A stretch of DNA of 64,000 nucleotides from Anaerolineae bacterium (GCA_049589355.1 JBAWAP010000323.1:24539-88538); one strand, 5' to 3'; positions 9,880 to 64,000 are shown, counted from the stretch's first letter. Notes: generated from the letters alone by a model not told the origin. Made by a program: numbers and translations.

Positions 9880-10779
9880 ATGGGAGATAGTGCGCTTCCA
9901 TCTGATGTGAGGCGAACAGGGGCTCAGAGGATTTCGGATCTTCCATTCCGCAATCCACAATCCGCAACCCGCAATCTGGCATTGCACGCCATCCTGATCG
10001 CCGGCAGTGTAGTTACGTTGCTGCCCTTTGTGTGGATGCTCAGCACTTCCCTGAAGGAACCGCGGGAGATCTTCACCTACCCACCCGTCTGGATCCCCAG
10101 CCGCATCGCCTGGGAAAACTACGCCACCACTGTTTCGATCATGCCCTTTGGCCGCTTTTATTTCAACAGCCTGGTGGTGGCCACCAGTGTCACCTTCCTG
10201 CAGATCCTCACCTCCTCCCTGGCCGCTTTCGCCTTTGCCCGGCTGCGCTTTCGGGGACGTAATGTGCTTTTTCTGCTTTACCTGGCCACGTTGATGATCC
10301 CGTTCCAGGTGACGATGATTCCTAACTTTATCCTCATCCGCCTGCTGGGATGGTACGATTCCTACCAGGCCCTTATCTTGCCTCCAGCCTTCTCGGCCTT
10401 CAGCACTTTTTTGCTGCGCCAGTATTTCCTGGGCATTCCTATGGACCTGGACGAAGCGGCCCGCATGGATGGCGCGTCCTCTTTGCGAATATGGTGGCGG
10501 ATCATCATGCCTCTAAGCGGCCCAGCCATTGCTGCCCTGGCCGTTTTCATCTTCCTCGGCTCCTGGAACGATTTCCTGTGGCCGTTGGTCATCACCACCT
10601 CGTTGAAGATGCGCACCCTGCCTGTGGGCCTCAGCGCATTTCAGGGCCAGTACAACGTGCAGTGGCACCTGCTGATGGCTGGCTCCGTCATCGCCATGCT
10701 GCCGGTGCTCATCATCTACGCCGTTGGCCAGAAATGGATCGTGCGAGGCATCACCCTTACGGGCATGGGTGGGCGCTGA
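9880..10779 (+). CDS. ABC sugar transporter permease (MalG-like)
   Basis: Six TM segments and EAA loop (DEAARMDGASSLRIWWRIIMP). The N-terminal tail is encoded by tandem heptamers CAATCCA/CAATCCG/CAACCCG/CAATCTG (9944-9978). Confidence 0.85.
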   Translation: MGDSALPSDVRRTGAQRISDLPFRNPQSATRNLALHAILIAGSVVTLLPFVWMLSTSLKEPREIFTYPPVWIPSRIAWENYATTVSIMPFGRFYFNSLVVATSVTFLQILTSSLAAFAFARLRFRGRNVLFLLYLATLMIPFQVTMIPNFILIRLLGWYDSYQALILPPAFSAFSTFLLRQYFLGIPMDLDEAARMDGASSLRIWWRIIMPLSGPAIAALAVFIFLGSWNDFLWPLVITTSLKMRTLPVGLSAFQGQYNVQWHLLMAGSVIAMLPVLIIYAVGQKWIVRGITLTGMGGR

Positions 10780-49963: not shown

Positions 49964-50308
49964 GTGATGGGTAGGGCTGATGAATCGTTCAGAAAGCGGC
50001 TCGAAGAGGAGCGCAGAAGCCTGATAGCACAACTGGAGCGGTTGGGTGTGACGGAGCAGGAAAACCCTGGCTACAGCACCCACATAGCCGATGATGCTAC
50101 CGAGGTTTACGAAAACGCTAAGAACCACGCATTACGTCAGAATCTACAGCGTCTCCTGGGCCGAGTGAACGATGCCCTGACGAAATTTGATAAAGGCACC
50201 TATGGGCTGTGCGATGACTGCGGCGGAAGTATAGATCGGGCACGTTTGAAGGCTCTTCCTTACGCCACCCTGTGCATCCAGTGCCAGCAGCAGCGCGAGA
50301 GATCATAG
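49964..50308 (+). CDS. DksA/TraR-family C4 zinc-finger protein
   Basis: CDDCGGSIDRARLKALPYATLCIQC. 114 aa. Confidence 0.8.
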   Translation: MMGRADESFRKRLEEERRSLIAQLERLGVTEQENPGYSTHIADDATEVYENAKNHALRQNLQRLLGRVNDALTKFDKGTYGLCDDCGGSIDRARLKALPYATLCIQCQQQRERS

Positions 50309-50367
50309 AGAACCTGTACCGAGCCTGTCGAAGAGGGGGAGTTTACCTTTTGCTTCGTGAGAAGTGG

Positions 50368-50859
50368 ATGAGGTTCCTCTTGCCAGGGGTCGCCATTCTC
50401 ACCCTGGTGATTGACCAAATCAGCAAGCGGGTGGTGATGACCGGCCTGAGGCTAGGCGAGTCCTGGAATCCCATGGCTGCTCTAGAGCATTGGGTGAGCC
50501 TGACTTACGTGACTAACACGGGGGCCGCCTTCGGTCTGTTTCCCGATCACGGGGTTCTGTTCATGATCATCGCCATGGCGGTGGTAGCGGTCATTGTCTT
50601 CTACTACCGCTACTTGCCGGGCGATCGGTGGTTGATTCAGGCTAGCCTGGGGCTGCAGTTGGGCGGAGCTCTGGGCAACTTGCTGGATCGTCTGTGCTAT
50701 GGCCGCGTCATAGACTTTATTGACTTCAAGATCTGGCCCATCTTCAACCTGGCCGACAGTGCCGTCGTGGTGGGAGTGGTGATACTGGCCTATCATCTCC
50801 TACGAGGTGAGAGCTTCCATGCTAAAGGTTCGGAGGTACCCAGCAAATTCAATCTGTGA
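50368..50859 (+). CDS. lspA: Lipoprotein signal peptidase (signal peptidase II)
   Basis: DQISK, NTGAAFG and FNLADS motifs. Start set to ATG 50368 (start uncertain). Confidence 0.85.
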   Translation: MRFLLPGVAILTLVIDQISKRVVMTGLRLGESWNPMAALEHWVSLTYVTNTGAAFGLFPDHGVLFMIIAMAVVAVIVFYYRYLPGDRWLIQASLGLQLGGALGNLLDRLCYGRVIDFIDFKIWPIFNLADSAVVVGVVILAYHLLRGESFHAKGSEVPSKFNL

Positions 50860-50912: not shown

Positions 50913-51497
50913 ATGAATAAGGAGAGGGATACGAGCCCCTCTAACATGAGACGGGGTATTATTGTCTCGTTGTTGATAGCCGCGCTAGTTGTGTTAGCTG
51001 ACCAATTAACTAAGTCTCTGATCATTAGGTACTTGGATTGGGGGGAGACTTGGAACCCAATCCCATCTTTGAGATGGTTGGTCAATCTTACGCCCGTAAT
51101 TAACGAGGGCGGGGTTTGCGGCTATTTTCAAGGCTCTGGGTTGCGTTTCATCATAGTTGGTATTGTTGTTATTGGAGTCATGCCCATCTTATGGCGCTCT
51201 TTGCCCGTCAATCGAGCTTTGATAAGAGTGAGTCTTGGTCTGCTATTGGCAGGTGCAGTAGGAAACCTCCTCGATCGCTGGCGCTTTGGTTACGTCATTG
51301 ATTTTATTTCCGTTGAGTCAATATCTTGGCCTGCTTTTAACATCGCCGATAGTGCTAATGTAATAGGAACCTTAATTCTCGGCTATTATCTGCTCCATGA
51401 GCAGGAAGAAGAGAAGGGAGAGGGAGCACAGCTCAGAGCATCGTGGAAATTCATCGTGCTGGCGTTGGGAGTAGGGCTTTTGGCATTCTACTTTTGA
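50913..51497 (+). CDS. Second signal peptidase II paralog (low GC)
   Basis: ADQLTKSLI, GNLLDRWRFGYVIDFI and FNIADSA motifs. The NTGAAFG motif is replaced by NEGGVCGYF. GC is visibly lower than in lspA. Confidence 0.75.
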   Translation: MNKERDTSPSNMRRGIIVSLLIAALVVLADQLTKSLIIRYLDWGETWNPIPSLRWLVNLTPVINEGGVCGYFQGSGLRFIIVGIVVIGVMPILWRSLPVNRALIRVSLGLLLAGAVGNLLDRWRFGYVIDFISVESISWPAFNIADSANVIGTLILGYYLLHEQEEEKGEGAQLRASWKFIVLALGVGLLAFYF

Positions 51498-52705: not shown

Positions 52706-52987
52706 ATGAGCACAGTCGTGACTTTGGAGTTGCCAGATAGCGTATATCAGCCACTGGTGAAAATAGCGGAGAAAACGGGTAAGCCACTGGAGGAGTGGAT
52801 TCTGGCGCAGCTTTGGGCCCGCGTGCCACGGGTGGTGCTGTCTGAGCGGGAACGCGCTGAAGCTATGGCGCGGCTGATGGGGCACGCGGGCGCAGTTAAT
52901 TTAGGCCATCCGACAGGCGCGGACAACGAGAGCATTGACGTTGATCTGGCGCAGGAATACAGTAGCATGCACGAGGTGCAGTCGTGA
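52706..52987 (+). CDS. Antitoxin of a PIN-toxin module
   Basis: 93 aa. 4-nt overlap with the downstream PIN gene. Confidence 0.6.
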   Translation: MSTVVTLELPDSVYQPLVKIAEKTGKPLEEWILAQLWARVPRVVLSERERAEAMARLMGHAGAVNLGHPTGADNESIDVDLAQEYSSMHEVQS

Positions 52988-53382
52988 TGTTGCTGGATAC
53001 GTCGGGGCTGTTGTGTTTCCACCACGCTGCTGAACCACAACACGAGGAGGCGGTGACCTTCTTTCATGCCGCGCCCGCTCGTATTACTCACAGTTATGTG
53101 CTGGCAGAGTTTGTTGCTCTGGCCGTGGCGCGCCGTCTGCCTCGTCAAGCGGCATTGGCATTTGTGGCCGAGTTGCAAGACAACCCACTGGTCCAGGTTG
53201 TCTATGTAGACGAGCCTTTGCACCGAGAGGCTCTTGTGCTCCTGCAGCAACGCCTGGACAAGACGTGGACCCTGTGTGATGCGGTAAGCTTCTTGCTGAT
53301 GCAGCAGCGAGGCATCGTCGAAGCCCTAACTACTGACGCTCACTTCGAACAGGCGGGCTTCATACGGTTGCTACACCCTTGA
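52984..53382 (+). CDS. vapC: PIN-domain toxin (VapC-like)
   Basis: MLLDTSGLL start with the conserved Asp, plus later acidic residues (VLAEF, TTDAHF). 132 aa. Confidence 0.75.
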   Translation: MMLLDTSGLLCFHHAAEPQHEEAVTFFHAAPARITHSYVLAEFVALAVARRLPRQAALAFVAELQDNPLVQVVYVDEPLHREALVLLQQRLDKTWTLCDAVSFLLMQQRGIVEALTTDAHFEQAGFIRLLHP

Positions 53383-54892: not shown

Positions 54893-55122
54893 ACGCCCGC
54901 GATTACTACCTGAGCCTGCAACATGCCATCCACATTGCACCGCACGTGCTCCGTTCAGACGTGCGGTTTGAGGAAATTGATGTCAACGAGTGCTACGTGC
55001 GCGGCATCCTCACGCTGACAGGCGGCTTCGAGCTGCACATTGCAGAATACGTTGTCACCGAGCCGGTCCTGACGCGCCCCAAGTATCGGTATCACTTGCA
55101 TACCTCTGTGTGTGGCACATAG
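54889..55122 (+). CDS. Short toxin-like ORF (resembles DUF6516-type), probably C-terminally truncated
   Basis: LNARDYYLSLQHAI...RPKYRYHLH and then a premature-looking stop. Family recall is uncertain. Confidence 0.35.
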   Translation: MNARDYYLSLQHAIHIAPHVLRSDVRFEEIDVNECYVRGILTLTGGFELHIAEYVVTEPVLTRPKYRYHLHTSVCGT

Positions 55123-55237
55123 AGATCCTGGTTGGTCCACCGCAGGTGTTGATGGCAAGGTCAACTGGAGAATTTCGCGCCCCTGGCCGAATGGCACGGC
55201 TATGGATGTTACGGTCATGTATCTGTGAAATGGCAGT

Positions 55238-55266
55238 TTGACATGCTTATCTACTGGGGGTATAAT
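55238..55266 (+). promoter_or_regulatory. sigma70-type promoter (TTGACA-17 nt-TATAAT)
   Basis: Perfect hexamers, 50 nt upstream of the HTH gene. Confidence 0.65.
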
Positions 55267-55316
55267 GTAACCAATTCTGTGACTTCACCTTGGAGACTTT
55301 CGCAAGAAGGCATACG

Positions 55317-55640
55317 ATGGGCAAAAACAGAAAACCAACACTTAAAGTCGAAGCATATGGACTGACAAGAGCCCGAGAGGACATTGGACTCACCCCCGCA
55401 GAACTGGCTGAGTTGACCGGCAAGCGAACCCATTACTTTTACATGCTGGAATCCCTGAAGCGATCGCCCAGTTCGGACCTGCAAGATGCCATCCTTGAGC
55501 ATCTCCCTGGGTATGACTGGGATGACCTCTTCAGATTTGTGATTGTGTTGCCAGAGAATCCCCCAACCGATACTCTATACATCGAACTGAGAAACGACGG
55601 CCGGCGGAAGATCTTACTTTCCCGCAAGACCCAAGCGTAG
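55317..55640 (+). CDS. Small HTH (XRE-like) regulator
   Basis: AREDIGLTPAELAELTGKRTHYFYMLE helix-turn-helix. 107 aa. Confidence 0.6.
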   Translation: MGKNRKPTLKVEAYGLTRAREDIGLTPAELAELTGKRTHYFYMLESLKRSPSSDLQDAILEHLPGYDWDDLFRFVIVLPENPPTDTLYIELRNDGRRKILLSRKTQA

Positions 55641-55772
55641 ATCAAAGGTGTCCGGAGCTATCTTGATCGCGAGCGCCTGATCACCGTCCCGATCCACCTC
55701 CAAACTCTGGAACCCAGGGGGATATATGTTGGAAAGCAACGGTAGAAACATGGCGCAGGCCGGAACAAGCTG

Positions 55773-58700
55773 ATGATCGTCAACAATCATCAACTCTTCT
55801 CCCATACCTACCTCGCACGGCTGCAAGCCGATCCCACACACGACGAAGCGGCCGCGCCCATAGGCCAAGGGTTGCGTGACTGGATGCCCTTCCGCGATAC
55901 CTCCTCGCTCCGGTCGCTGATTGATTCCTGGGTCGGCCCGGTGCTCGACTTCCTGAAGTTCCACCACGTGCTGGCTGATGACTCTCCCCACATTTGCCTG
56001 CTCTACACACGCCGGGGCGATGAAACGCCTGTCGGCCTATGCTACGTCGTCCCACCTGGCCAAGATGGTTCGACAGGCTCACCACGTGGCTTGAATGACA
56101 CAACCAAAGGCCAACATCCGATGGCCCAAGCGGTCCTAGCTCTGCGCACTCGCGACCTGCGCTGGGGGATGCTGACTGACGGCGCGCGCTGGCGGCTGGT
56201 TGACGCCCAGGCCCTGCGCCGCTACGAGCATTACGTCGAGGTGGACCTGGACGAACTAGCCCGCAGCGACGACCCCACACCCTTGCGCCTCTTCTACGCT
56301 TTCTTCCACCGCAGCGCCTTCACGCCCGCTCATTCCCCCGCCAGCGGGGGGACCGAGGGGGGTGGTGAGAGCGGGCTGGATCGGCTGGTGGCGGCCTCGA
56401 TCCGAGCGACGAAGGCGGCTGAGGATCACCTCAAGGCGCGGGTCAGCCACAACGAGGGCATCATGGCCCAACTGTGCCTGGGGCTGGTGCGTGCCGATGG
56501 GCGAACTTGCTACACCGACACAGAACGGGACGCTATCTACCGCGACGCCACCTATCTCCTCTACCGCATACTTTTCATCCTCTATGCCGAAGCCCGGGGC
56601 CTCTTGCCGGTGAACAACCTGGCCTACCGCGCCGTGAGTCTGGCCGAGTTAGTCAAGACCGCCCACGACTACAAGTTGCGTGGGATGCCCGACCCTCAGG
56701 CGACGATGCTGTGGGAACGGCTGAAGCGGCTATGCAATGCCATCTACGAGAGCGACCCGGTGCTGGGCATTCCCGCTTATAACGGCGGCCTCTTCGACGA
56801 TGCTGACAAGCCTTACCTGCGTGACGGCCACATCGCCGATATGTATCTCACCGAGGCCCTCTTCGACCTGGCCTACATGCCCGACAAGGTGCCAGGCACT
56901 TCCGAAGTGCCTGGCACCTCCTACCGCCCCATTGACTACCGCGACCTCTCCGTGCGCCACATGGGCAGCCTCTATGAGGGGATGATCGAGTACAAGCTTC
57001 ACATCGCCGAGGAGACGCTGTGGGCGCGGCGGGACGGCAAGGGCAACGTGCGCTTTCTGCGCAGCGGCCAGGACGGGGCACCCCGCAAGACCGATGTGGA
57101 GATCGAGCCGGGCCAGGTCTACTTCTCCCAGAGCCCCGGCGAGCGACGCGCCACCGGCACCTACTACACCCCGGAGTACATCGTGGACTACATCGTGCGC
57201 CAGACGGTGGTGCGGGGGCTGGAGGAACGACGCGCTCCACTGGAGGAGAAGCTGGCCGGCTGGCTGGAGGAGATCGCCGTCACGACCGACCCCGCCGAGC
57301 GGGCTCGGATGCAGCGCACTGCTGACGAGGAACTGCTGCGCTTCGTCAAGGAGCAGGTGCTCACTTTCCGTGTCTGCGACATAGGAATGGGCAGTGGTCA
57401 CTTCCTGGTCAACTCGGCCCATCAGATCGCCAACTCTATCATGGAAACCCTGCACCTGACCCCGTGGGGGCCTGTCCTGAGCGGAGTCGAAGGAAACGAC
57501 GCGGTTGACGCCGACCCGGCAACCTGGCGGCGGCAGGTAGTGGAGCGCTGTCTGTACGGGGTGGACCTGAGCTTGATGGCCGTGGAGCTAGCCAAGCTGA
57601 GCCTGTGGCTGGCCAGCGTGGCCGAGGGCAAACCCCTGTCTTTCTTGGATCACCACCTGCGTCAAGGCAACAGCCTCATCGGTGCCCGGCTGGAGGACCT
57701 GGCCGAGGTCCTGGCGGGCGTGGCTTCCACTCGTCCGTCGCGCCAGGAGCGCAAAGCACGGGAAGCAGGGCAACTTTCAATGCTAGATGACCCGGCTTTC
57801 AGCCAACACGTAACGGCAGCGACTGATCTGTTGGCTCAGATCTCGGCCCGGGTGGTTGAGAGAGTGGAGGACATCAAGGCCCAGGAGGCCGACTATGAAC
57901 AGGTGCGCGCTGAGTTGGAGCCCTACCGGCGGCTGGCCGATCTTTGGACTGCGCGTCACTTCGGTGTGGATGTGGATGAGCAGCAGTTGAGAGCCATTTC
58001 CAGGTACCTGGTCAACGGCGCTGTCAGTCCAGTGCCAGAATACGAGCGAATTCTAACACGGACTCAAGAACTAGCCCACGACCGAAGCTTCTTCCACTGG
58101 GAACTCGAATTTCCCACGGTCTTCCTCGATCAGTCTGATCAGCTACTGGAAGACAGAGCAGGGTTTGATGCAGTGGTTGGAAATCCACCTTATTCGTTAG
58201 ATCTGACTCAACAGGAGAAACACTACTTCAAGAAAACGTATCCCAGTCTGTTCTTCAAGATAAACCTCTTTGCCGCATTTGTTGAGAGAGGACTAGAACT
58301 GTCGAGAAGCCCCACCGGATGCTTGTCGTTGATCATCCCTAATCTGTTACTTGGCAACAGATCGTTGAGAGACTTGCGTGTGAAACTGGCGACTGACAAT
58401 ACCATTCGCGCCCTGCACAACCTTGGCGATGGTGTTTTTGAGGAAGCCGAAGTGCCCACGCTAGTATTTGTTGTGCAAAAGCAGCTCCCTCTGCCAGACC
58501 ACGAAGTTGTTGTTGGTTCTGGGGCATTGACTGGTGGAAACCTGGATGCTCAGCGCATTCGTCAGAGCTCGATTCTAGTTACACAAGAGCAGGTGTTTAA
58601 TCTGTCGTCAACGCGTGAGATAGACATCATCACCCGCCTCATGGCGAGATGCGACTTGTTCCAAGATCATCTTGACATTCATCAGGGCGTGATTACCGGT

Positions 58701-59888
58701 GATGACTCTCGTTTCCTTGCTGATGCGCCTAGAGGATCACATTGGAAACCAACTCTCACTGGCAAAGACATCGACCGTTACATAACGGACTACCCCACTC
58801 TGTACGTTGACTACCAGCCTGCTTTGCTTGCGGCGCCAAGGGAAATTGCTATCTTCGATGTTCCCGAAAAGCTATTGATGCGACGCACTGGAGACAGACC
58901 ACTAGCGTCTTACGACGACCGACAGACCTTTAATCTTCATACTTTGTACTCCATTCGTAAAGAGAATAGCTCACTCCTCAGCTTGAAATACTGTCTTGCA
59001 CTCATAAATTCCTCTCTGATGGCTTGGATTTACAAGACACTCTTGCCTACTGAAATTGGTCGCACTTTCGCGGAAATCAAGATAGTACACATTCGGCAAC
59101 TTCCCATCAGCCGCATTGCCTTCACCACGCCTCTTAATGAGCGCACGGTACTGGTACAGGAAAGTGTTGCGCTTTACATCGCAGGTAAGCAAGAAGCGTT
59201 GCTTGCGTCTGTGTCAGAGTGGCTCACAACCCAACCAGGGCGAGCCGACGTTGTCCACGACCTGCTGGCTCACCTGGCGCAGCAGATGATTGACCTCAAC
59301 AAAGAGCGCCAGCGATTGGAGCGTGAGGCCAACCTGTTCCGCTTCGTGGATCGCGATACGTCCTGCGTGAAGCTGGATGAGGCCCTGGGCGGGCCGTTGG
59401 GTGCCGGCGAAATGGTAGGCAATTTATCTGCCGTCCACCACAACATTGAGGGCTTGCGCCTCACACAAGAGGATAATGGCCGCTGGCTCCTGGAGGTGCG
59501 GGCCAAGCTACGCGACCCGGAGAGCGACTGGCGGGAGCATCAGCGCGATAAGGAAGGCAACTTCATCCGTCAGTGGCTGCCGGCCTACCGCCTGCCGCTG
59601 GACAAGGCGACCGGCCGCTTCTATCACTACGCCTTTGCCCACTTGGGCGGCTTCGCCGGGGCCGGCAAGTTCCCCGGCGGCTCCACCCGCACCACGCTGG
59701 AGAAGCTCAAGGCGACGAAGGTGCCTAAGCTCGTGTCGGTGGACTTGGCCCCACTGACCGTGCTAGACGCCGAACTGACCGAGGTGCGCCGCAAGATCCG
59801 CCTCACCGATGACTTGATTGACCAGATCGTGTACAGGCTCTATGGGCTAACCGAGGAGGAGATTGCGATTGTGGAGGGGCGGGGGTGA
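55773..59888 (+). CDS. Large type IIG / PglX-like N6-adenine DNA methyltransferase
   Basis: GTYYTPEYIVDYIV, DIGMGSGHFL (motif I), VVGNPPYS (motif IV), N-terminal LTDGARWRLV. The C-terminal YRLYGLTEEEIAIVEG is typical of Eco57I/TaqI-like enzymes. 1371 aa. Confidence 0.85.
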   Translation: MIVNNHQLFSHTYLARLQADPTHDEAAAPIGQGLRDWMPFRDTSSLRSLIDSWVGPVLDFLKFHHVLADDSPHICLLYTRRGDETPVGLCYVVPPGQDGSTGSPRGLNDTTKGQHPMAQAVLALRTRDLRWGMLTDGARWRLVDAQALRRYEHYVEVDLDELARSDDPTPLRLFYAFFHRSAFTPAHSPASGGTEGGGESGLDRLVAASIRATKAAEDHLKARVSHNEGIMAQLCLGLVRADGRTCYTDTERDAIYRDATYLLYRILFILYAEARGLLPVNNLAYRAVSLAELVKTAHDYKLRGMPDPQATMLWERLKRLCNAIYESDPVLGIPAYNGGLFDDADKPYLRDGHIADMYLTEALFDLAYMPDKVPGTSEVPGTSYRPIDYRDLSVRHMGSLYEGMIEYKLHIAEETLWARRDGKGNVRFLRSGQDGAPRKTDVEIEPGQVYFSQSPGERRATGTYYTPEYIVDYIVRQTVVRGLEERRAPLEEKLAGWLEEIAVTTDPAERARMQRTADEELLRFVKEQVLTFRVCDIGMGSGHFLVNSAHQIANSIMETLHLTPWGPVLSGVEGNDAVDADPATWRRQVVERCLYGVDLSLMAVELAKLSLWLASVAEGKPLSFLDHHLRQGNSLIGARLEDLAEVLAGVASTRPSRQERKAREAGQLSMLDDPAFSQHVTAATDLLAQISARVVERVEDIKAQEADYEQVRAELEPYRRLADLWTARHFGVDVDEQQLRAISRYLVNGAVSPVPEYERILTRTQELAHDRSFFHWELEFPTVFLDQSDQLLEDRAGFDAVVGNPPYSLDLTQQEKHYFKKTYPSLFFKINLFAAFVERGLELSRSPTGCLSLIIPNLLLGNRSLRDLRVKLATDNTIRALHNLGDGVFEEAEVPTLVFVVQKQLPLPDHEVVVGSGALTGGNLDAQRIRQSSILVTQEQVFNLSSTREIDIITRLMARCDLFQDHLDIHQGVITGDDSRFLADAPRGSHWKPTLTGKDIDRYITDYPTLYVDYQPALLAAPREIAIFDVPEKLLMRRTGDRPLASYDDRQTFNLHTLYSIRKENSSLLSLKYCLALINSSLMAWIYKTLLPTEIGRTFAEIKIVHIRQLPISRIAFTTPLNERTVLVQESVALYIAGKQEALLASVSEWLTTQPGRADVVHDLLAHLAQQMIDLNKERQRLEREANLFRFVDRDTSCVKLDEALGGPLGAGEMVGNLSAVHHNIEGLRLTQEDNGRWLLEVRAKLRDPESDWREHQRDKEGNFIRQWLPAYRLPLDKATGRFYHYAFAHLGGFAGAGKFPGGSTRTTLEKLKATKVPKLVSVDLAPLTVLDAELTEVRRKIRLTDDLIDQIVYRLYGLTEEEIAIVEGRG

Positions 59889-60092
59889 AACATTCCCTAT
59901 CTTCGAAGACCCACTGATTTGAATGGTGACCATGACAAAGTCTTCCGTGGTGCCCATATATTGTGGTATCCTCGGCCATGAATACAACATATAGTATGCA
60001 CGAGAAATTCTGTCATCCTTGGACTCCAAATCAGTGGTAGTCTGATCTTGTAAGTCTATTAACGCGTAAGTGTTCGTCCCAAGGAGAAAGCT

Positions 60093-61931
60093 ATGAATCT
60101 ACCCAGTGAAGGGGATCTTTTCACCCCGAAATCGGCAATCCTGGATAGCCTATTACCTGACATTTGCCGGCACAAGATTGCCCTGCCTGAATTCCAACGT
60201 CCATGGGTTTGGGAACCAGAGATGGTACGCGACCTACTGATCTCTGTTGCCTACCGTTACCCAGCAGGTAGTTTGCTGACCATGCCTGTCAGTGGAGACA
60301 GCTTCGCTCTGCGCCCTTTTGAAGGGTGTAGTGACAAGCTGCGAGACAAGCCGAACCTAGTCATCCTGGACGGTCAACAACGACTGACTAGCCTCTACCA
60401 GTCTCTTTATTGGCGAGATGGAGTTCACTATAAACAGCACAAGTACTACTTTTATCTGGATGTAGCAATATTGATGGCCGACCGGGATGGCATAGACGTG
60501 GGCGATCCGTATTTTGACCAGGCACTGTTCTACGTGCGAGAAGAGAAGAATGGCCGCCGGGTGCGTTACGACGGCCTGCGGCCGATGTACGAGTTGACGA
60601 CTGCTGAGGACGAACTTCGAGCCGGCGCGTTGCCCCTCGGCTGCATCTTTGATAATGATGCACTGACCAAGTGGAAAGAGGAGTACCTCTATCGCCAAAC
60701 GACCGATTTGGCGCGTTACCGGGAACTCAATCGGGAATGGGACCGACTTGTACATGCATGGATAACCCGTATCCGCACGTACCGCTTTCCGGTTGTGGAA
60801 CTGGACGATTCCATGCCCCTGGGAGCGATATGTCACATTTTCGAGAAACTCAACAGTACGGGTGTTCCTTTGGATGTCTTTGACCTTTGCAACGCTATCC
60901 TTTGGGCACAGGGCTTCCATCTCAACCATCGCTGGGCTGCCACAGAAAAGGAACTGAAGGAAGCCCTGCCCATGCAACCGCTTTCCGGCACTTATTTCTT
61001 GCAGGGTTTGTCTCTGCTTGACTCTATGGACCGCAAAAGAGCCAATCCAGACCGGGAGATTGCGGTCACTTGCCGCAAGCAAGACCTCATGGCTATGAAG
61101 CGCGAAACGGTTGAAAAATGGTGGGATCCCCTTGTAAAAGGCTACGGGGAAGCTGCCAAATTCATGGCCGACCAGGGTATCATAGCCACACGCATTCTGC
61201 CTTACTCCACGTTGATTACCCCGCTCTCGGCTGTTTTCGCCGATCTGATACGGCACAAAGGCACTGCCCATATAGGCGCTACGTGGCCACAAATTGAGCG
61301 CTGGTACTGGTGCAGCGTATTCAGCCAGCGGTATAGCAGCCAGATTGAGACTGCCTCAGCCCGGGATTTTGAGCATGTCCTCAACTGGATTGACGGCGGG
61401 GAACCTCCCGATGTTGTGCGCACCTTTGGCTTTCGCTCCGACGCCCTGCAAGAGATCACCTCTATCCGCAACGCCATCTACAAAGGAGTGCTCTGCTTGC
61501 TGACGCGCGGGGGGGCCAAAGACTTTGGCGGCGGAGGTAAACTCTCAACGCACCTCTTCTACGCGACCAACCAGGATCACCACCACATTTTCCCCACCAA
61601 TGCACTCAAGCGACTGGGTATTCAAGACCGACGTGTTGACACTATCGTCAACAAAACACTGATCAATTACGCAGTCAACCGCAGCATTGGTGGCAGACTA
61701 CCCTCCGAGTACGTGAGAGATTGGCGGGGTAGGTTAGGCGCTGCCCTTTTCGACAGCATTTTGGAGACGCATAGGGTTGATTCCGCTTCCTTGAGCAATG
61801 ATAACTGGGAACGTTACTTGCTCGATCGGCGGGAGAAGCTTCGGCAACTGATTGCCTCAGCCTGTGGTGGCAATATCCAACCCTTCTCTGACATTGCTGA
61901 CCTTGAGGTTGAGGATAACGAAGAAGTGTGA
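60093..61931 (+). CDS. DUF262/DUF1524 (GmrSD-like) type IV restriction-type protein
   Basis: DGQQRLTSL (DUF262) at the N-terminus. HHIFP...VNKTLINYAVNRSIG (His-Me/DUF1524-like) at the C-terminus. 612 aa, with lower GC than the flanks. Confidence 0.8.
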   Translation: MNLPSEGDLFTPKSAILDSLLPDICRHKIALPEFQRPWVWEPEMVRDLLISVAYRYPAGSLLTMPVSGDSFALRPFEGCSDKLRDKPNLVILDGQQRLTSLYQSLYWRDGVHYKQHKYYFYLDVAILMADRDGIDVGDPYFDQALFYVREEKNGRRVRYDGLRPMYELTTAEDELRAGALPLGCIFDNDALTKWKEEYLYRQTTDLARYRELNREWDRLVHAWITRIRTYRFPVVELDDSMPLGAICHIFEKLNSTGVPLDVFDLCNAILWAQGFHLNHRWAATEKELKEALPMQPLSGTYFLQGLSLLDSMDRKRANPDREIAVTCRKQDLMAMKRETVEKWWDPLVKGYGEAAKFMADQGIIATRILPYSTLITPLSAVFADLIRHKGTAHIGATWPQIERWYWCSVFSQRYSSQIETASARDFEHVLNWIDGGEPPDVVRTFGFRSDALQEITSIRNAIYKGVLCLLTRGGAKDFGGGGKLSTHLFYATNQDHHHIFPTNALKRLGIQDRRVDTIVNKTLINYAVNRSIGGRLPSEYVRDWRGRLGAALFDSILETHRVDSASLSNDNWERYLLDRREKLRQLIASACGGNIQPFSDIADLEVEDNEEV

Positions 61932-61945
61932 AATGGCAGGAAGAA

Positions 61946-62056
61946 GACCTGACTGACCAGATCGTGTACAGGCTCTATGGGCTGACGGAGGAGGAGATCG
62001 CGATTGTGGAGGGGCGGGCGCCAGGGTCATACCCAGAAGAGGAACGATCAGAATGA
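61946..62056 (+). pseudogene. Relic 3' end of the methyltransferase gene
   Basis: 61955-62018 matches 59820-59883 (3 mismatches in 64 nt). In-frame DQIVYRLYGLTEEEIAIVEGRAPGSYPEEERSE*, whose TGA overlaps ATG 62053 of the next gene. Confidence 0.85.
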
Positions 62057-63753
62057 CGGAGCAAGAGTTGCGTACCCTCATTGCCGGAGGGGAAACACCA
62101 ACGGTGGAGTTCAAGAGTGACCACGGACCACTGCCTGACACCGAACTGCTGGAGACCGTGATCTGCCTGGCCAACGGGCAAGGTGGTACACTGCTGGTAG
62201 GCGTAGAGGATGACGGCCGTGTGACTGGTCTGCACTCCCATCACCGAACCCATCCAGGTGCATTGGCGGCCTTGATTGCCAACCGGACAGTACCCCCGGT
62301 GACCGTTGAAGCCGCGTTTGTGGATCTCCCCGAGGGGACTGTGGCCGTTGTCGTTGTGCCTCCCGCTCGCCAACCGGTGGCGACCAGCGATGGCAGGTTG
62401 CTCATTCGTTATGTAGACACGCGGGGGCGACCCGGTTGCCGTCCCTTCTACCCGCACGAAATGGCGAGCTGGCGCGCCGACCGGGGCATGGCCGACATGT
62501 CGGCGCTGCCAGTGCCGGGTACCGGCTGGGAGGATCTGGATCCGCTGGAACTGGCGCGTCTGCGCCGGATGGTGCACGAATTCCACGGCGATGTGGCACT
62601 GCTGGAGCTGGATGACGACCAGTTGGCCCAGGCGCTGGGCCTGGTGCAATCCCACCAAGGGTGCCTACAGCCAACATTGGCCGGACTGTTGCTGGTGGGA
62701 ACAGAGGAGGCCCTGCGCCAGCATGTTCCCGCTCATGAGGTCGCCTTCCAGGTGTTGCGGGGCACGGACGTGGCAGTCAACGAGTTCCGCCGCTGGCCAC
62801 TGCTGCGGATGTTGGAATGGGTGCTGGAATCGTTCCAGGTGCGCAACGAGGAGCGGGAGTTGAGCATCGGCCTGTTTCGAGTCGGTGTGCCTGCCTACGA
62901 CCCGCGCGGCTTTCGTGAGGCAGTGAACAACGCACTCATCCACCGGGACTATGCTCTGTTGGGAGCTATCCACATTCAGATGCACGATGATTATGTTCGC
63001 ATCAGCAATCCTGGTGGTTTTGTGGAAGGGGTGAGACTTGACAACCTGCTGGTGACCGAGCCGCGCCCTCGTAACCCTCGCTTGGCCGACGCTTTCAAAC
63101 GAATAGGCCTAGTGGAACGCACCGGCCGTGGCGTGGCCATCATCTACAATGGCCAGTTGCGCAACGGCCGTCTGCCGCCGGACTACAGTTTGAGCACCGA
63201 GGCAAGCGTCAGCGTCATACTCCCCGGTGGTCCGGCCGATCTGGATTTCGTTCAGTTGGTGGTCACCGAGGAAAACCGCCGTCAGCGGCCTTTGGGGGTG
63301 AGCGAATTGTTGGTGCTGGCTCACGTGTGGTGCGAGCGGACTATAGATACTGCCACCGCAGCCCGGCTCATCCAACGGGATGAAGCCCAGGCCCGGGCTG
63401 TGCTGGAAAGCTTGGTAGAGACCGGTCTGCTCGAAGGGCGCGGAGCTAAACGAGGCCGCACATATCTGCTCAGCGCCGGCGTGTACCGTGCCCTGGGCCG
63501 GCCTGCCGCGTACGTCCGCGCCCGGGGTTTTGAGGCGGAACAGATGAAGCAGATGATCTTGCAGTACGTGCGTGCCCACGGCCGCATCGCTCGGCGTGAG
63601 GTGATGGAGCTGTGCCGGATCAATGAGAATCAGGCGGGGTACCTGCTCAAGAGGCTAGCCCAGCAGGGCCAGCTTCTGCTGGTGGGCAAGGGGCGCTCGG
63701 CCTACTACGAGAGCGCCAAGAGCGCCCGTAAGACTCGGAATAACTCGGAATAG
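62053..63753 (+). CDS. AlbA_2 (Schlafen-like) / HATPase_c_4 putative DNA-binding ATPase-regulator
   Basis: N-terminal GETPTVEFKSD AlbA_2 signature, central ATPase-like region, C-terminal winged-helix-like tail. 566 aa. Confidence 0.7.
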   Translation: MTEQELRTLIAGGETPTVEFKSDHGPLPDTELLETVICLANGQGGTLLVGVEDDGRVTGLHSHHRTHPGALAALIANRTVPPVTVEAAFVDLPEGTVAVVVVPPARQPVATSDGRLLIRYVDTRGRPGCRPFYPHEMASWRADRGMADMSALPVPGTGWEDLDPLELARLRRMVHEFHGDVALLELDDDQLAQALGLVQSHQGCLQPTLAGLLLVGTEEALRQHVPAHEVAFQVLRGTDVAVNEFRRWPLLRMLEWVLESFQVRNEERELSIGLFRVGVPAYDPRGFREAVNNALIHRDYALLGAIHIQMHDDYVRISNPGGFVEGVRLDNLLVTEPRPRNPRLADAFKRIGLVERTGRGVAIIYNGQLRNGRLPPDYSLSTEASVSVILPGGPADLDFVQLVVTEENRRQRPLGVSELLVLAHVWCERTIDTATAARLIQRDEAQARAVLESLVETGLLEGRGAKRGRTYLLSAGVYRALGRPAAYVRARGFEAEQMKQMILQYVRAHGRIARREVMELCRINENQAGYLLKRLAQQGQLLLVGKGRSAYYESAKSARKTRNNSE

Positions 63754-64000
63754 TCGCGTACAAACACGGATTCCGAGTTTATGTGGCCTTTCAAACGCAA
63801 TGGTTAACATTCCTTAGAGTTAACATATGGAATGGCAGCCTGTCTTCAAGGGCGTCTCGCCCCGCGAAGTCTACGAACGCGGCGGGTATGGCGATGAACC
63901 TCCCAGAGGATTGAGCGACCGGGACGTTATCGAGATCGTGGAGAAGTCCTTGCGGCGCATGCGCTGCAACTGATGCAGGAACTGCCTTGCAATAACAGAT

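What the first reader, a model, noticed from the sequence alone, without database searches (positions are those of the whole stretch)
59811..62056. A GmrSD-like DUF262 gene is inserted into the methyltransferase 3' end, and the displaced tail still carries the ATGA coupling to the downstream gene
The last ~64 nt of the 1371-aa methyltransferase (59820-59883, ...DQIVYRLYGLTEEEIAIVEGRG*) recur at 61955-62018 with 3 mismatches. The second copy reads on in frame (…IAIVEGRAPGSYPEEERSE*). Its TGA (62054-62056) overlaps the ATG (62053) of the AlbA_2/ATPase gene.

This implies the ancestral arrangement was methyltransferase and AlbA_2 gene translationally coupled. A ~2.07-kb, visibly lower-GC segment now separates them. 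That segment carries only the DUF262/DUF1524 gene plus an AT-rich 200-nt leader. It also supplies a replacement C-terminus to the methyltransferase.
Basis: seen in the sequence. Interest (0 to 1): 0.72.

Follow-up and report, generated by a model that had tools for sequence, protein, structure and literature searches.

The report
Defence gene inserted at methyltransferase tail
A type IV restriction gene (GmrSD/BrxU-like) was inserted at the very end of the methyltransferase gene of a BREX-like phage-defence locus, duplicating the gene's last 76 bases, and the same scar recurs at such methyltransferase genes in many bacteria and archaea, sometimes as whole arrays of defence-type genes.

Summary
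Bases 59808-59883 recur at 61943-62018 (76 nt, 92% identical), and in the 64-nt core the three mismatches are all synonymous. The copies bracket a 2,059-nt lower-GC segment that carries one intact GmrSD/BrxU-like gene.

A related locus (L091-L093) is the uninterrupted state: methyltransferase, 60 nt, then an AlbA_2 gene 87% identical. Its single tail aligns to both window copies, so the insertion reading is supported.

The ATGA-coupling inference is not supported. In the uninterrupted relative the methyltransferase stops at ...EGRA, 60 nt before the AlbA_2 ATG. No homologue among those examined has the read-through extension.

The locus is BREX-like: a PglX-like methyltransferase, a variable region, then DUF4007, a BrxF-like gene and a BrxC/SspC-like gene; relatives add PglZ and BrxL.

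Orphan methyltransferase tails, always on the same strand, also delimit other cassettes in relatives and in distant phyla (HNH, ATP-grasp, HEPN, PIN, RhuM, dCTP deaminase). One locus has eight orphan copies. No integrase was found where checked, the orphan boundaries vary, and the tail shows no extra DNA-level conservation.

The best reading is recombination-driven insertion with long target duplication, reiterated at the methyltransferase end. The mechanism is inferred, not shown.

The parts
55773..59888 (+). PglX-like N6-adenine DNA methyltransferase, 1371 aa (Eco57I methylase domain plus TaqI_C specificity domain); first gene of a BREX-like locus
   Evidence: Pfam. PADLOC best hits are DrmMI, type IIG and PglX. 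Homologues at 54-68% identity sit upstream of DUF4007 / BrxC-like / PglZ / BrxL genes.
58193..59233 (+). Variable low-GC stretch of the methyltransferase gene that includes the TaqI_C specificity domain (GC 0.485, GC3 0.52); no nucleotide homology in any relative although both flanks align
59808..59883 (+). Tail copy 1: the last 76 nt of the live methyltransferase reading frame (...DDLIDQIVYRLYGLTEEEIAIVEGR)
59885..60033 (+). 149-nt AT-rich piece (GC 0.43), unique among all sequence fetched here and absent from the closest GmrSD locus L088; it contains the methyltransferase stop codon (59886-59888)
60034..60092 (+). Leader and ribosome-binding site of the GmrSD gene, shared with L088, where it directly abuts a methyltransferase tail
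   Evidence: blastn window 60034-61926 = L088 85-1977, 94%
60093..61931 (+). GmrSD/BrxU-like type IV restriction enzyme gene, 612 aa, full length relative to homologues (DGQQR and DHHHIFP motifs present)
   Evidence: Pfam GmrSD_N E=2.8e-25. Homologues of 611-625 aa cover 98-100%. The model matches BrxU 7P9K, E=1e-15.
61932..61942 (+). 11-nt junction between the native GmrSD stop codon and the orphan tail
   Evidence: Homology to L088, L089 and L090 GmrSD ends at 61926-61932; tail homology starts at 61943.
61943..62018 (+). Tail copy 2: the displaced (orphan) methyltransferase tail. It is closer to the tail of the uninterrupted relative L091 (3 differences in the 65-nt core) than copy 1 is (7 differences).
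61928..62056 (+). Possible 42-codon ORF containing the orphan tail: a GTG that overlaps the GmrSD stop, and a TGA that overlaps the AlbA_2 ATG. Probably fortuitous.
   Evidence: Read from the sequence; not conserved in L091 or L099/L100.
62053..63753 (+). AlbA_2 (Schlafen-like) / HATPase_c_4 / wHTH protein, 566 aa; the resident gene that was displaced downstream
   Evidence: Pfam. Homologues at 78-87% identity lie next to live or orphan methyltransferase tails.
63806..63826 (+). AACATTCCTTAGAGTTAACAT, an operator-like motif that recurs in intergenic spots of related loci
63828..64000 (+). Start of decayed remnants of an older module: the C-terminal half of the 107-aa ORF, followed beyond the window in L007 by an internally deleted second AlbA_2 (41 aa), then DUF4007, a 156-aa BrxF-like gene and a BrxC/SspC-like gene

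Best explanation
The window holds the variable region of a BREX-like defence locus. Its order is a PglX-like methyltransferase, accessory genes, then DUF4007 (BrxA-like), a BrxF-like gene and a BrxC/SspC-like gene; relatives continue with PglZ and BrxL.

Shown: a single-gene cassette encoding a GmrSD/BrxU-like type IV restriction enzyme lies between the methyltransferase and an AlbA_2 gene that are adjacent in a relative. It is bracketed by a 76-nt direct duplication of the methyltransferase 3' end. The methyltransferase frame stays intact, and the old tail sits as a non-functional orphan in front of AlbA_2.

Inferred: the insertion was made by general recombination and not by a dedicated recombinase. 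One route is homology-facilitated illegitimate recombination anchored in the conserved methyltransferase gene. The other is Campbell-type integration, or double crossover, using tail copies as portable homology. The outcome is an 'insertion with long target duplication'.

Inferred: selection keeps only events that leave ...LYGLTEEEIAIVEG and the downstream operon intact. This would explain why the scars run to the gene end and why the cassettes are tight and, in the window, free of predicted terminators.

Repeating the process at the methyltransferase-proximal end pushes older modules downstream, each behind its own orphan tail. The functional result is a type IV enzyme that targets modified DNA layered onto a methylation-based BREX-like system, as with BrxU in pEFER.
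For: Repeat and anatomy.

Empty site: L091-L093 show MTase-AlbA_2 adjacency, and L091's one tail aligns to both window copies.

Foreign composition of the insert: GC3 0.60 against mostly 0.72-0.83 in host genes.

Independent assembly L007 is identical across both junctions.

The same cassette occurs elsewhere. The L088 GmrSD (94%) sits directly behind a methyltransferase tail with the same leader, and is followed by a 30-nt orphan tail remnant fused in frame (...EIAIVEGRA*) in front of a different AlbA_2 gene. The L089 GmrSD (80%) lies 57 nt behind another such tail.

Second clean filled/empty pair: L009 equals an L006-like locus plus a [167 aa + HNH] cassette, with a ~165-nt duplication that spans the last 43 nt of the gene and ~115 nt of intergenic DNA.

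Nested series consistent with methyltransferase-proximal insertion: L006 is M|107aa-AlbA_2'|tail|..., and L009 is M|HNH|tail|107aa-AlbA_2'. AlbA_2(566) follows a live tail in L091, an orphan tail behind GmrSD in the window, and an orphan tail behind an ATP-grasp cassette in L100.

The ATP-grasp cassette is flanked by tails on both sides in L005 and L094, collinear over 2.5 kb.

Arrays in other phyla: L067 has 8 orphan copies after its live tail, L056 has 4 copies in all, Halorubrum L055 has 3, Methanothrix L022 has 3 and Treponema L077 has 3, with HEPN, PIN, AlbA_2, RhuM, dCTP-deaminase and SLOG/PRTase genes between them. Every copy is on the methyltransferase strand.

Against a dedicated recombinase: no integrase in the insert or among the neighbours checked. 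Orphan lengths run from 30 to ~290 nt with different left boundaries. Third-codon identity in the tail is not elevated (0.65 against 0.68).

Precedents: RM and type IV genes inserted with 46-423-bp target duplications and no mobility genes (PMC2853133). Sequential displacement by homology-facilitated illegitimate recombination (PMC5361080). GmrSD-type genes embedded in BREX loci (PMC8565348; PMC12839542).
Against: No experiment or read-level data were available. The recombination route cannot be told from sequence alone. The two window copies share lineage-specific states (AGG CTC), while the 3' end of copy 1 (ATT...CGGGG) matches the L088 tail. Simple target duplication, crossover within the tail, and later gene conversion all fit this pattern.

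The polarity is inferred from parsimony across about ten loci. Relative to L088, the window could equally be described as having gained [tail + AlbA_2].

In L101/L102 an 81%-identical GmrSD sits at the far end of the variable region, next to DUF4007 and with no tail beside it, so not every move leaves this scar.

The survey was anchored on the tail motif, so it cannot say whether methyltransferase ends are preferred over other gene ends.

Most related loci are metagenome contigs or MAGs.
Confidence: 0.75

Rival explanations
1. Reverse polarity, or a recombinant locus. The resident arrangement was MTase-GmrSD (as in L088). The piece [tail + AlbA_2(566) + 107-aa ORF ...] then came from an L091-like donor, by homologous crossover between the donor's live tail and an orphan tail already present behind GmrSD.
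For: L088 and L089 show GmrSD directly behind a methyltransferase tail in relatives, and L088 already carries an orphan tail remnant behind GmrSD. AlbA_2 and its tail are collinear with L091. Tails flank the same cassette in different neighbourhoods.
Against: This needs the [tail-AlbA_2] module to have entered behind different cassettes (window, L100, L094) on separate occasions. Methyltransferase-proximal insertion explains all the architectures as a nested series. GmrSD, not AlbA_2, is the compositional outlier. The 30-nt remnant in L088 cannot be ancestral to the 76-nt copy in the window.
Confidence: 0.15
2. Site-specific, integron-like capture. The tail is an attachment site recognised by a recombinase encoded elsewhere, and the cassettes move as circles.
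For: Arrays of tightly packed single-gene or few-gene cassettes are separated by a reiterated ~45-290-nt element, all in one orientation.
Against: No integrase or transposase lies in the insert or beside the arrays examined. Orphan left and right boundaries differ from event to event. There is no excess synonymous-site conservation in the tail. Each array carries the signature of its own methyltransferase lineage and not a common site. A degenerate tail pattern has only one match in 2.9 million viral contigs.
Confidence: 0.05
3. Copy 2 is what remains of a second, tandem methyltransferase gene that decayed by deletion.
For: Decayed methyltransferase genes exist, for example L048 with an internal deletion.
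Against: L091 has a single methyltransferase whose tail is contiguous with AlbA_2. Among close relatives the orphans are all only 30-130 nt of the extreme 3' end, in at least 7 loci, which random decay would not give.
Confidence: 0.04
4. Assembly artefact or chimeric contig caused by the repeat.
For: The source is a metagenome-type contig and no reads were available.
Against: The copies differ at 6 of 76 positions, so they would not collapse or misjoin. L007 from a different assembly is identical over 8.6 kb. The left junction is reproduced in another sample, L088.
Confidence: 0.01

Closest known systems
Insertion with long target duplication of restriction-modification genes (Nobusato et al. 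2000; Furuta, Abe and Kobayashi 2010, PMC2853133)
   Same: A restriction gene unit (type IV examples were reported) sits between long direct repeats (46-423 bp) that occur once in an 'empty' relative. The insert has no mobility genes and a deviant GC content. The mechanism is unknown and thought to be recombinational.
   Different: Here the duplicated target is the 3' end of another defence gene (a PglX-like or type IIG methyltransferase). The event is reiterated at the same place, giving arrays of up to eight orphan copies, in both Bacteria and Archaea. The cargo is mostly not RM genes (HEPN, PIN, AlbA_2, RhuM, ATP-grasp, dCTP deaminase).
Sequential displacement arrays: T6SS effector-immunity modules in Vibrio (Kirchberger 2017, PMC5361080). 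From memory, not checked here: orphan cdiA-CT/cdiI and Rhs tip modules.
   Same: New modules enter next to a conserved upstream gene. The older module is pushed downstream and keeps a 3' fragment of the conserved gene. Homology-facilitated illegitimate recombination is proposed for the event, with homologous recombination spreading the arrays.
   Different: In those systems the displaced fragment encodes a polymorphic toxin tip and the retained gene is its immunity partner. Here the conserved tail is not polymorphic, the methyltransferase protein is essentially unchanged, and the modules are independent defence genes.
BrxU, the GmrSD-family type IV enzyme embedded in the pEFER BREX locus (Picton 2021, PMC8565348); nuclease effectors embedded in BREX loci (PMC12839542)
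   Same: A DUF262 plus HNH-type enzyme sits inside a BREX-type operon. The structural model's best match is BrxU. The two systems probably give complementary protection.
   Different: brxU lies between brxC and pglX, whereas here the gene follows pglX. Sequence identity to BrxU is only ~17%. The passages I searched in those papers do not mention an insertion scar or tail duplication. The core here uses DUF4007/SspB-like and SspC-like proteins together with a methyltransferase.
Integron gene cassette arrays
   Same: Compact, mostly promoter-less, co-oriented cassettes are separated by a reiterated element, and entry seems polarised toward one end.
   Different: There is no IntI integrase, no attC-like imperfect palindrome, variable repeat boundaries, and the repeat is a piece of coding sequence.

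Membership tests
Insertion with long target duplication (criteria of Furuta 2010) | Direct repeats longer than 30 bp flank the insert | tested here: met
   76 nt, 92% identical
Insertion with long target duplication (criteria of Furuta 2010) | The repeated sequence occurs once at the homologous site of a relative that lacks the insert | tested here: met
   L091 9860-9935 aligns to both window copies, with collinear flanks. The relative is ~82% identical in DNA and not the same species.
Insertion with long target duplication (criteria of Furuta 2010) | Insert shorter than 20 kb with no transposase, integrase or prophage genes | tested here: met
   The 2,059-nt insert holds one ORF, which is GmrSD.
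Insertion with long target duplication (criteria of Furuta 2010) | The cargo is a restriction or modification gene | tested here: met
   The cargo is a type IV (GmrSD/BrxU-like) enzyme. Furuta's first screen required both R and M genes, but their second screen lists type IV cases.
GmrSD / BrxU type IV restriction enzymes | N-terminal DUF262 (ParB-like NTPase) domain with the DGQQR motif | tested here: met
   PF03235 E=2.8e-25 over residues 29-270. DGQQR is invariant in 38 homologues.
GmrSD / BrxU type IV restriction enzymes | C-terminal DUF1524 / His-Me (HNH) nuclease domain | tested here: inconclusive
   No Pfam DUF1524 hit even at E<=10. D495, H496-H498 and N520/N529 are invariant. The model aligns to BrxU over 657 columns at E=1e-15, and Cas9 HNH domains give only weak matches (E 0.2-0.8).
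GmrSD / BrxU type IV restriction enzymes | Cleavage of modified (glucosyl-hmC or hmC) DNA | not testable with these tools
   Needs biochemistry or phage assays.
BREX (the system around the finding) | PglZ and a BrxC/PglY-type ATPase in the same operon | tested here: inconclusive
   The window ends at 64000. Its extension L007 shows DUF4007/SspB-like, a BrxF-like gene (weak, E=3e-4) and the start of a gene 85-86% identical to the 5' end of the BrxC/SspC-like (~1380-aa) genes of L001 and L006. PglZ and BrxL are seen only in the related loci L094 and L099.
BREX (the system around the finding) | PglX-type N6-adenine methyltransferase | tested here: met
   Eco57I plus TaqI_C domains. PADLOC PglX hits are weaker than the DrmMI and type IIG hits.
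Integron cassette array | IntI tyrosine recombinase and attC sites | tested here: not met
   No recombinase among the neighbours checked. The repeat is coding sequence with variable ends.
Integrase-borne island targeting a gene's 3' end | The element carries its own integrase and has a fixed att core | tested here: not met
   The insert is a single gene, and orphan boundaries differ between events.

The most novel reading that the evidence does not exclude
The 3' end of Eco57I/TaqI_C-class methyltransferase genes (type IIG enzymes and PglX-like BREX methyltransferases) may be a general, recombinase-free landing pad for defence genes. Each capture would duplicate the last ~45-290 nt of the gene, so that co-oriented arrays of defence cassettes punctuated by orphan tails build up in both Bacteria and Archaea. 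The tails would then serve as portable homology that lets cassettes be exchanged between loci. If this is so, orphan methyltransferase tails are a simple sequence tag for finding cassette boundaries and new defence genes. Candidates are the unannotated 250-, 444-, 288- and 420-aa ORFs in L067, L056 and L055.
Probability: 0.45. Interest if true: 0.7.

Novelty: new variant of a known kind. Interest (0 to 1): 0.55.

Why it matters
The finding gives a base-resolved example, with an empty-site relative, of how one defence system (BREX-like) acquires a second, complementary one (type IV restriction) without breaking its own methyltransferase gene or operon.

The wider pattern suggests that defence islands can grow by reiterated, homology-assisted stacking at a conserved gene end, with no integrase or transposase. 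It also offers a practical marker: orphan ...LYGLTEEEIAIVEG tails could be used to delimit cassettes and nominate uncharacterised defence genes.

It links the older, poorly understood phenomenon of 'insertion with long target duplication' to present-day defence-island biology.

Tried and rejected
The wider survey therefore rests on 80 genome-contig loci plus look-ups.
- A degenerate tail pattern in viral contigs gave one hit only, so phages are not obvious vehicles.
- The tail peptide against plasmids hit only haloarchaeal megaplasmids. The two regions I inspected added nothing.
- Rfam (E<=0.1) and the promoter/terminator scan of the region found nothing on the + strand. There is no known RNA element and no predicted terminator between the methyltransferase and AlbA_2.
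- I tested whether the tail is a DNA-level site through excess synonymous conservation. The result was negative.
- I tried to polarise donor and recipient from the few variable sites in the two copies, L088 and L091. The result was ambiguous.
- The 794-aa 'Eco57I (weak)' ORF in front of GmrSD in L101 looked like a long displaced methyltransferase fragment. It has no significant similarity to the window methyltransferase (best blastp E=0.1) and no tail, so I dropped it.
- Pfam did not confirm DUF1524. I settled family placement by structure prediction instead.
- The idea that the orphan tail is an N-terminal extension of AlbA_2 is rejected. It is in a different frame, and homologues 74-87% identical, where inspected (L091, L099/L100, L094, L101), start at the same ATG.

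Full report
**1. The observation**

The sequence and the repeat finder show a direct repeat, 59808-59883 and 61943-62018. It is 76 nt long and 92% identical. The longest exact repeat in 55000-64000 is 30 nt, against at most 16 in 50 shuffles.

Copy 1 ends the 1371-aa ORF 55773-59888, which carries Eco57I methylase and TaqI_C domains. Copy 2 lies 11 nt after the stop of the 612-aa GmrSD_N protein (60093-61931). It reads on to a TGA that overlaps the ATG (62053) of a 566-aa AlbA_2/HATPase_c_4 protein.

The segment between the copies has GC 0.524. GmrSD GC3 is 0.60, against 0.72-0.83 in most host genes sampled (one is 0.66).

A separate assembly, L007 (Logan, SRR28022779), is 100% identical to window 55381-64000 and extends 2 kb further. 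An assembly artefact is therefore very unlikely.

**2. What the genes are**

The methyltransferase family (54-68% identity) heads loci that continue with three conserved genes:
- DUF4007, which is SspB-like in PADLOC and BrxA-like according to PMC12839542;
- a 156-aa protein with a weak BrxF match;
- a ~1380-aa SspC/BrxC-like ATPase.

L094 and L099 also have PglZ, and L094 has BrxL. L007 shows that the window's own contig has DUF4007, the 156-aa gene and the start of the ATPase right after AlbA_2. The methyltransferase is therefore the PglX-like first gene of a BREX-like system, and the finding lies in a variable region between it and the conserved core.

The 612-aa protein is full length relative to homologues. 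Pfam sees only DUF262. A confident model (pLDDT 88.9) has BrxU 7P9K as its best match over the whole chain (E=1e-15), followed by SspE and then weak (E 0.2-0.8) Cas9 HNH-domain matches. The residues D495, H496-H498 and N520/N529 are invariant.

**3. The uninterrupted state exists**

The closest AlbA_2 homologue (87% identity, P0242) lies in L091-L093 directly after a homologous methyltransferase. The order there is MTase, 60 nt, AlbA_2, a 107-aa ORF, a second AlbA_2, DUF4007 and the 156-aa gene.

By blastn, window 61943-63780 is one collinear block with L091 9860-11728 (81%), and window 59233-59883 aligns with L091 9285-9935 (83%). L091's single tail therefore matches both window copies.

Downstream of AlbA_2 the window contig keeps decayed remnants of the same 107-aa ORF and of the second AlbA_2. 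The window is thus an L091-type locus plus a 2,059-nt insertion with a 76-nt duplication.

**4.

In L091 the methyltransferase ends ...EGRA-TAG, 60 nt before the AlbA_2 ATG, and the spacers are not alignable. In L099/L100 an orphan tail again precedes this AlbA_2 type, but the tail frame does not end on the ATG. None of 25 homologous C-termini extends more than 6 residues beyond ...VEG. The read-through ...APGSYPEEERSE and its ATGA overlap are best seen as an accident of a displaced, no longer translated tail.

The insert is also composite. L088, whose GmrSD is 94% identical, has a methyltransferase tail joined directly to the 59-nt leader (window 60034-60092). The window has an extra, unique 149-nt AT-rich piece (59885-60033), and this piece happens to provide the stop codon.

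**5. The scar is recurrent**

Close relatives show the same scar:
- L005 has three genes, including an MvdD-like ATP-grasp, between the live tail and an orphan tail.
- L006 has the 107-aa ORF and an AlbA_2 gene before a degenerate orphan tail.
- L009 is L006-like plus a [167 aa + HNH] cassette. Its ~165-nt duplication spans the last 43 nt of the gene and ~115 nt of intergenic DNA, giving a second filled/empty pair.
- L094 has three orphan tails, and its ATP-grasp cassette plus both flanking tails is collinear with L005 over 2.5 kb.
- The L088 GmrSD is fused in frame to a 30-nt orphan remnant (...EIAIVEGRA*) in front of a different AlbA_2 gene.

The architectures nest: M|107-AlbA_2'|t|... in L006, M|HNH|t|107-AlbA_2' in L009, M|AlbA_2 in L091, M|GmrSD|t|AlbA_2 in the window, and ATP-grasp|t|AlbA_2 in L100. 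This is what insertion at the methyltransferase-proximal end with displacement of older modules predicts.

**6. The pattern reaches beyond this family**

A genome-contig scan with the C-terminal 140 aa returned 80 loci. Across all 88 loci then held, including the window and the look-ups, 18 had two or more tail copies.

Among the non-redundant loci there are 120 tail copies. Of these, 54 end an ORF of at least 400 aa and 35 have fewer than 60 open codons upstream. All 103 tail hits in the 80 scan loci, additional copies included, lie on the methyltransferase strand. Five of 35 loci with a live tail and at least 3 kb of downstream sequence contain copies of their own last 120 nt.

Examples, with cassette annotations:
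- L067 (Anaerolineales, type IIG with an HSDR_N domain): 8 orphan copies. Between the orphan tails lie two ORFs with no Pfam match, an ORF with a weak (sub-threshold) HEPN_Swt1 hit, and one segment holding PIN_12, a 171-aa ORF, AlbA_2 and TPR genes.
- L056: HEPN_LA2681.
- L055 (Halorubrum): a SLOG/DprA-like gene and a PRTase-like gene.
- L022 (Methanothrix): a dCTP-deaminase-like gene.
- L077 (Treponema): PIN and RhuM.

Each array carries the sequence signature of its own methyltransferase lineage. Duplicate lengths range from 30 to ~290 nt and run to, or beyond, the gene end.

**7. Mechanism**

The following is shown:
- insertion plus duplication;
- no recombinase in the insert or among the neighbours checked;
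- variable orphan boundaries;
- no excess synonymous conservation in the tail (third-position identity 0.65 against 0.68);
- no known RNA family and no + strand terminator.

From these I infer general recombination and not site-specific recombination. There are two non-exclusive routes. The first is homology-facilitated illegitimate recombination anchored in the conserved methyltransferase gene, as proposed for T6SS arrays (PMC5361080). The second is single or double homologous crossover using tail copies as portable homology, which would explain the same cassette sitting between tails in different neighbourhoods.

Selection for an intact ...VEG C-terminus and for read-through to the BREX core would filter the junction positions. 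Long repeats would be lost by deletion. The few informative sites in the two window copies do not discriminate between the routes.

**8. Relation to what is known**

The single event meets the published criteria for 'insertion with long target duplication', which was described for RM genes including type IV (PMC2853133). GmrSD-type enzymes embedded in BREX loci are known: brxU lies between brxC and pglX in pEFER (PMC8565348; PMC12839542).

My searches did not turn up a description of reiterated use of a methyltransferase gene's 3' tail, or of arrays of defence cassettes delimited by orphan tails in both domains. I therefore rate the finding as a new variant of a known kind, of moderate interest.

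**9. Limits**

- Most related loci are metagenomic.
- The survey was anchored on the tail motif, so preference for methyltransferase ends over other gene ends is untested.
- Polarity rests on parsimony.
- In L101/L102 a related GmrSD sits at the other end of the variable region with no tail beside it.

Noticed in passing
window 58193-59233: A variable stretch of the methyltransferase gene, including the TaqI_C specificity domain, is a compositional island (GC 0.485, GC3 0.52). It has no nucleotide homology in any relative although both flanks align at 73-86%. This looks like a swap of the specificity domain, independent of the GmrSD insertion.
   Followed up: partly
window 59885-60033: A 149-nt AT-rich piece (GC 0.43) lies between the methyltransferase tail and the GmrSD leader. 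It is unique among all sequence fetched and absent from L088, and it supplies the methyltransferase stop codon. Without it the protein would end ...GRGGSLIL* as in L088. Its origin is unknown, and the consensus scan found no promoter in it.
   Followed up: partly
window 56887-56919: A perfect 16+16-nt palindrome (AGGTGCCAGGCACTTC-C-GAAGTGCCTGGCACCT) lies in frame inside the methyltransferase gene and encodes KVPGTSEVPGTS. Several homologues lack 7 of these residues. A near-identical hairpin occurs intergenically after GmrSD in L089, and a similar one in L090. It may be a REP-like palindromic element that tolerates in-frame insertion.
   Followed up: partly
window 63806-63826; also L091 11839 and 13960, L005 8205, L008 12132, L009 12258: A conserved ~21-nt motif, AACATWYYTWGMGTTAACAT (two GTTAACAT-like half sites), recurs in intergenic positions ahead of the 107-aa ORF, DUF4007 or other genes of these loci. 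It may be an operator or promoter element of the system.
   Followed up: no
window 63828-64000, continuing in L007 8448-8794: Decay products of an older module are present: the C-terminal half of the 107-aa ORF, and a second AlbA_2 gene reduced by an internal deletion to a 41-codon fusion of its first 15 and last ~26 codons.
   Followed up: yes
L088 1977-2012: In the closest GmrSD locus the enzyme's native stop is lost, and the ORF runs into a 30-nt orphan methyltransferase tail (...EEAGEIAIVEGRA*). The next gene's ATG follows the TAG directly. A recombination scar has become coding sequence.
   Followed up: partly
L007 8848-10657; L094 11844-21174: The defence system combines a PglX-like methyltransferase with DUF4007/SspB-like and SspC-like proteins, which are typical of type 4 BREX and Ssp systems, plus PglZ and BrxL. 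It has no PAPS reductase. I did not check whether this arrangement is already classified.
   Followed up: partly
L035, L042, L049, L053, L071, L086 (tail at about position 10000 of each): These loci hold isolated methyltransferase tail fragments (35-73 aa) with no methyltransferase homology within 10 kb upstream. Orphan tails can outlive the gene they came from.
   Followed up: partly
window 50272-50859 and 50913-51497; 52706-53382: Two tandem signal peptidase II (lspA) paralogues lie here, and a small ORF plus a PIN-domain gene pair (VapBC-like) lies just upstream of the defence locus.
   Followed up: no
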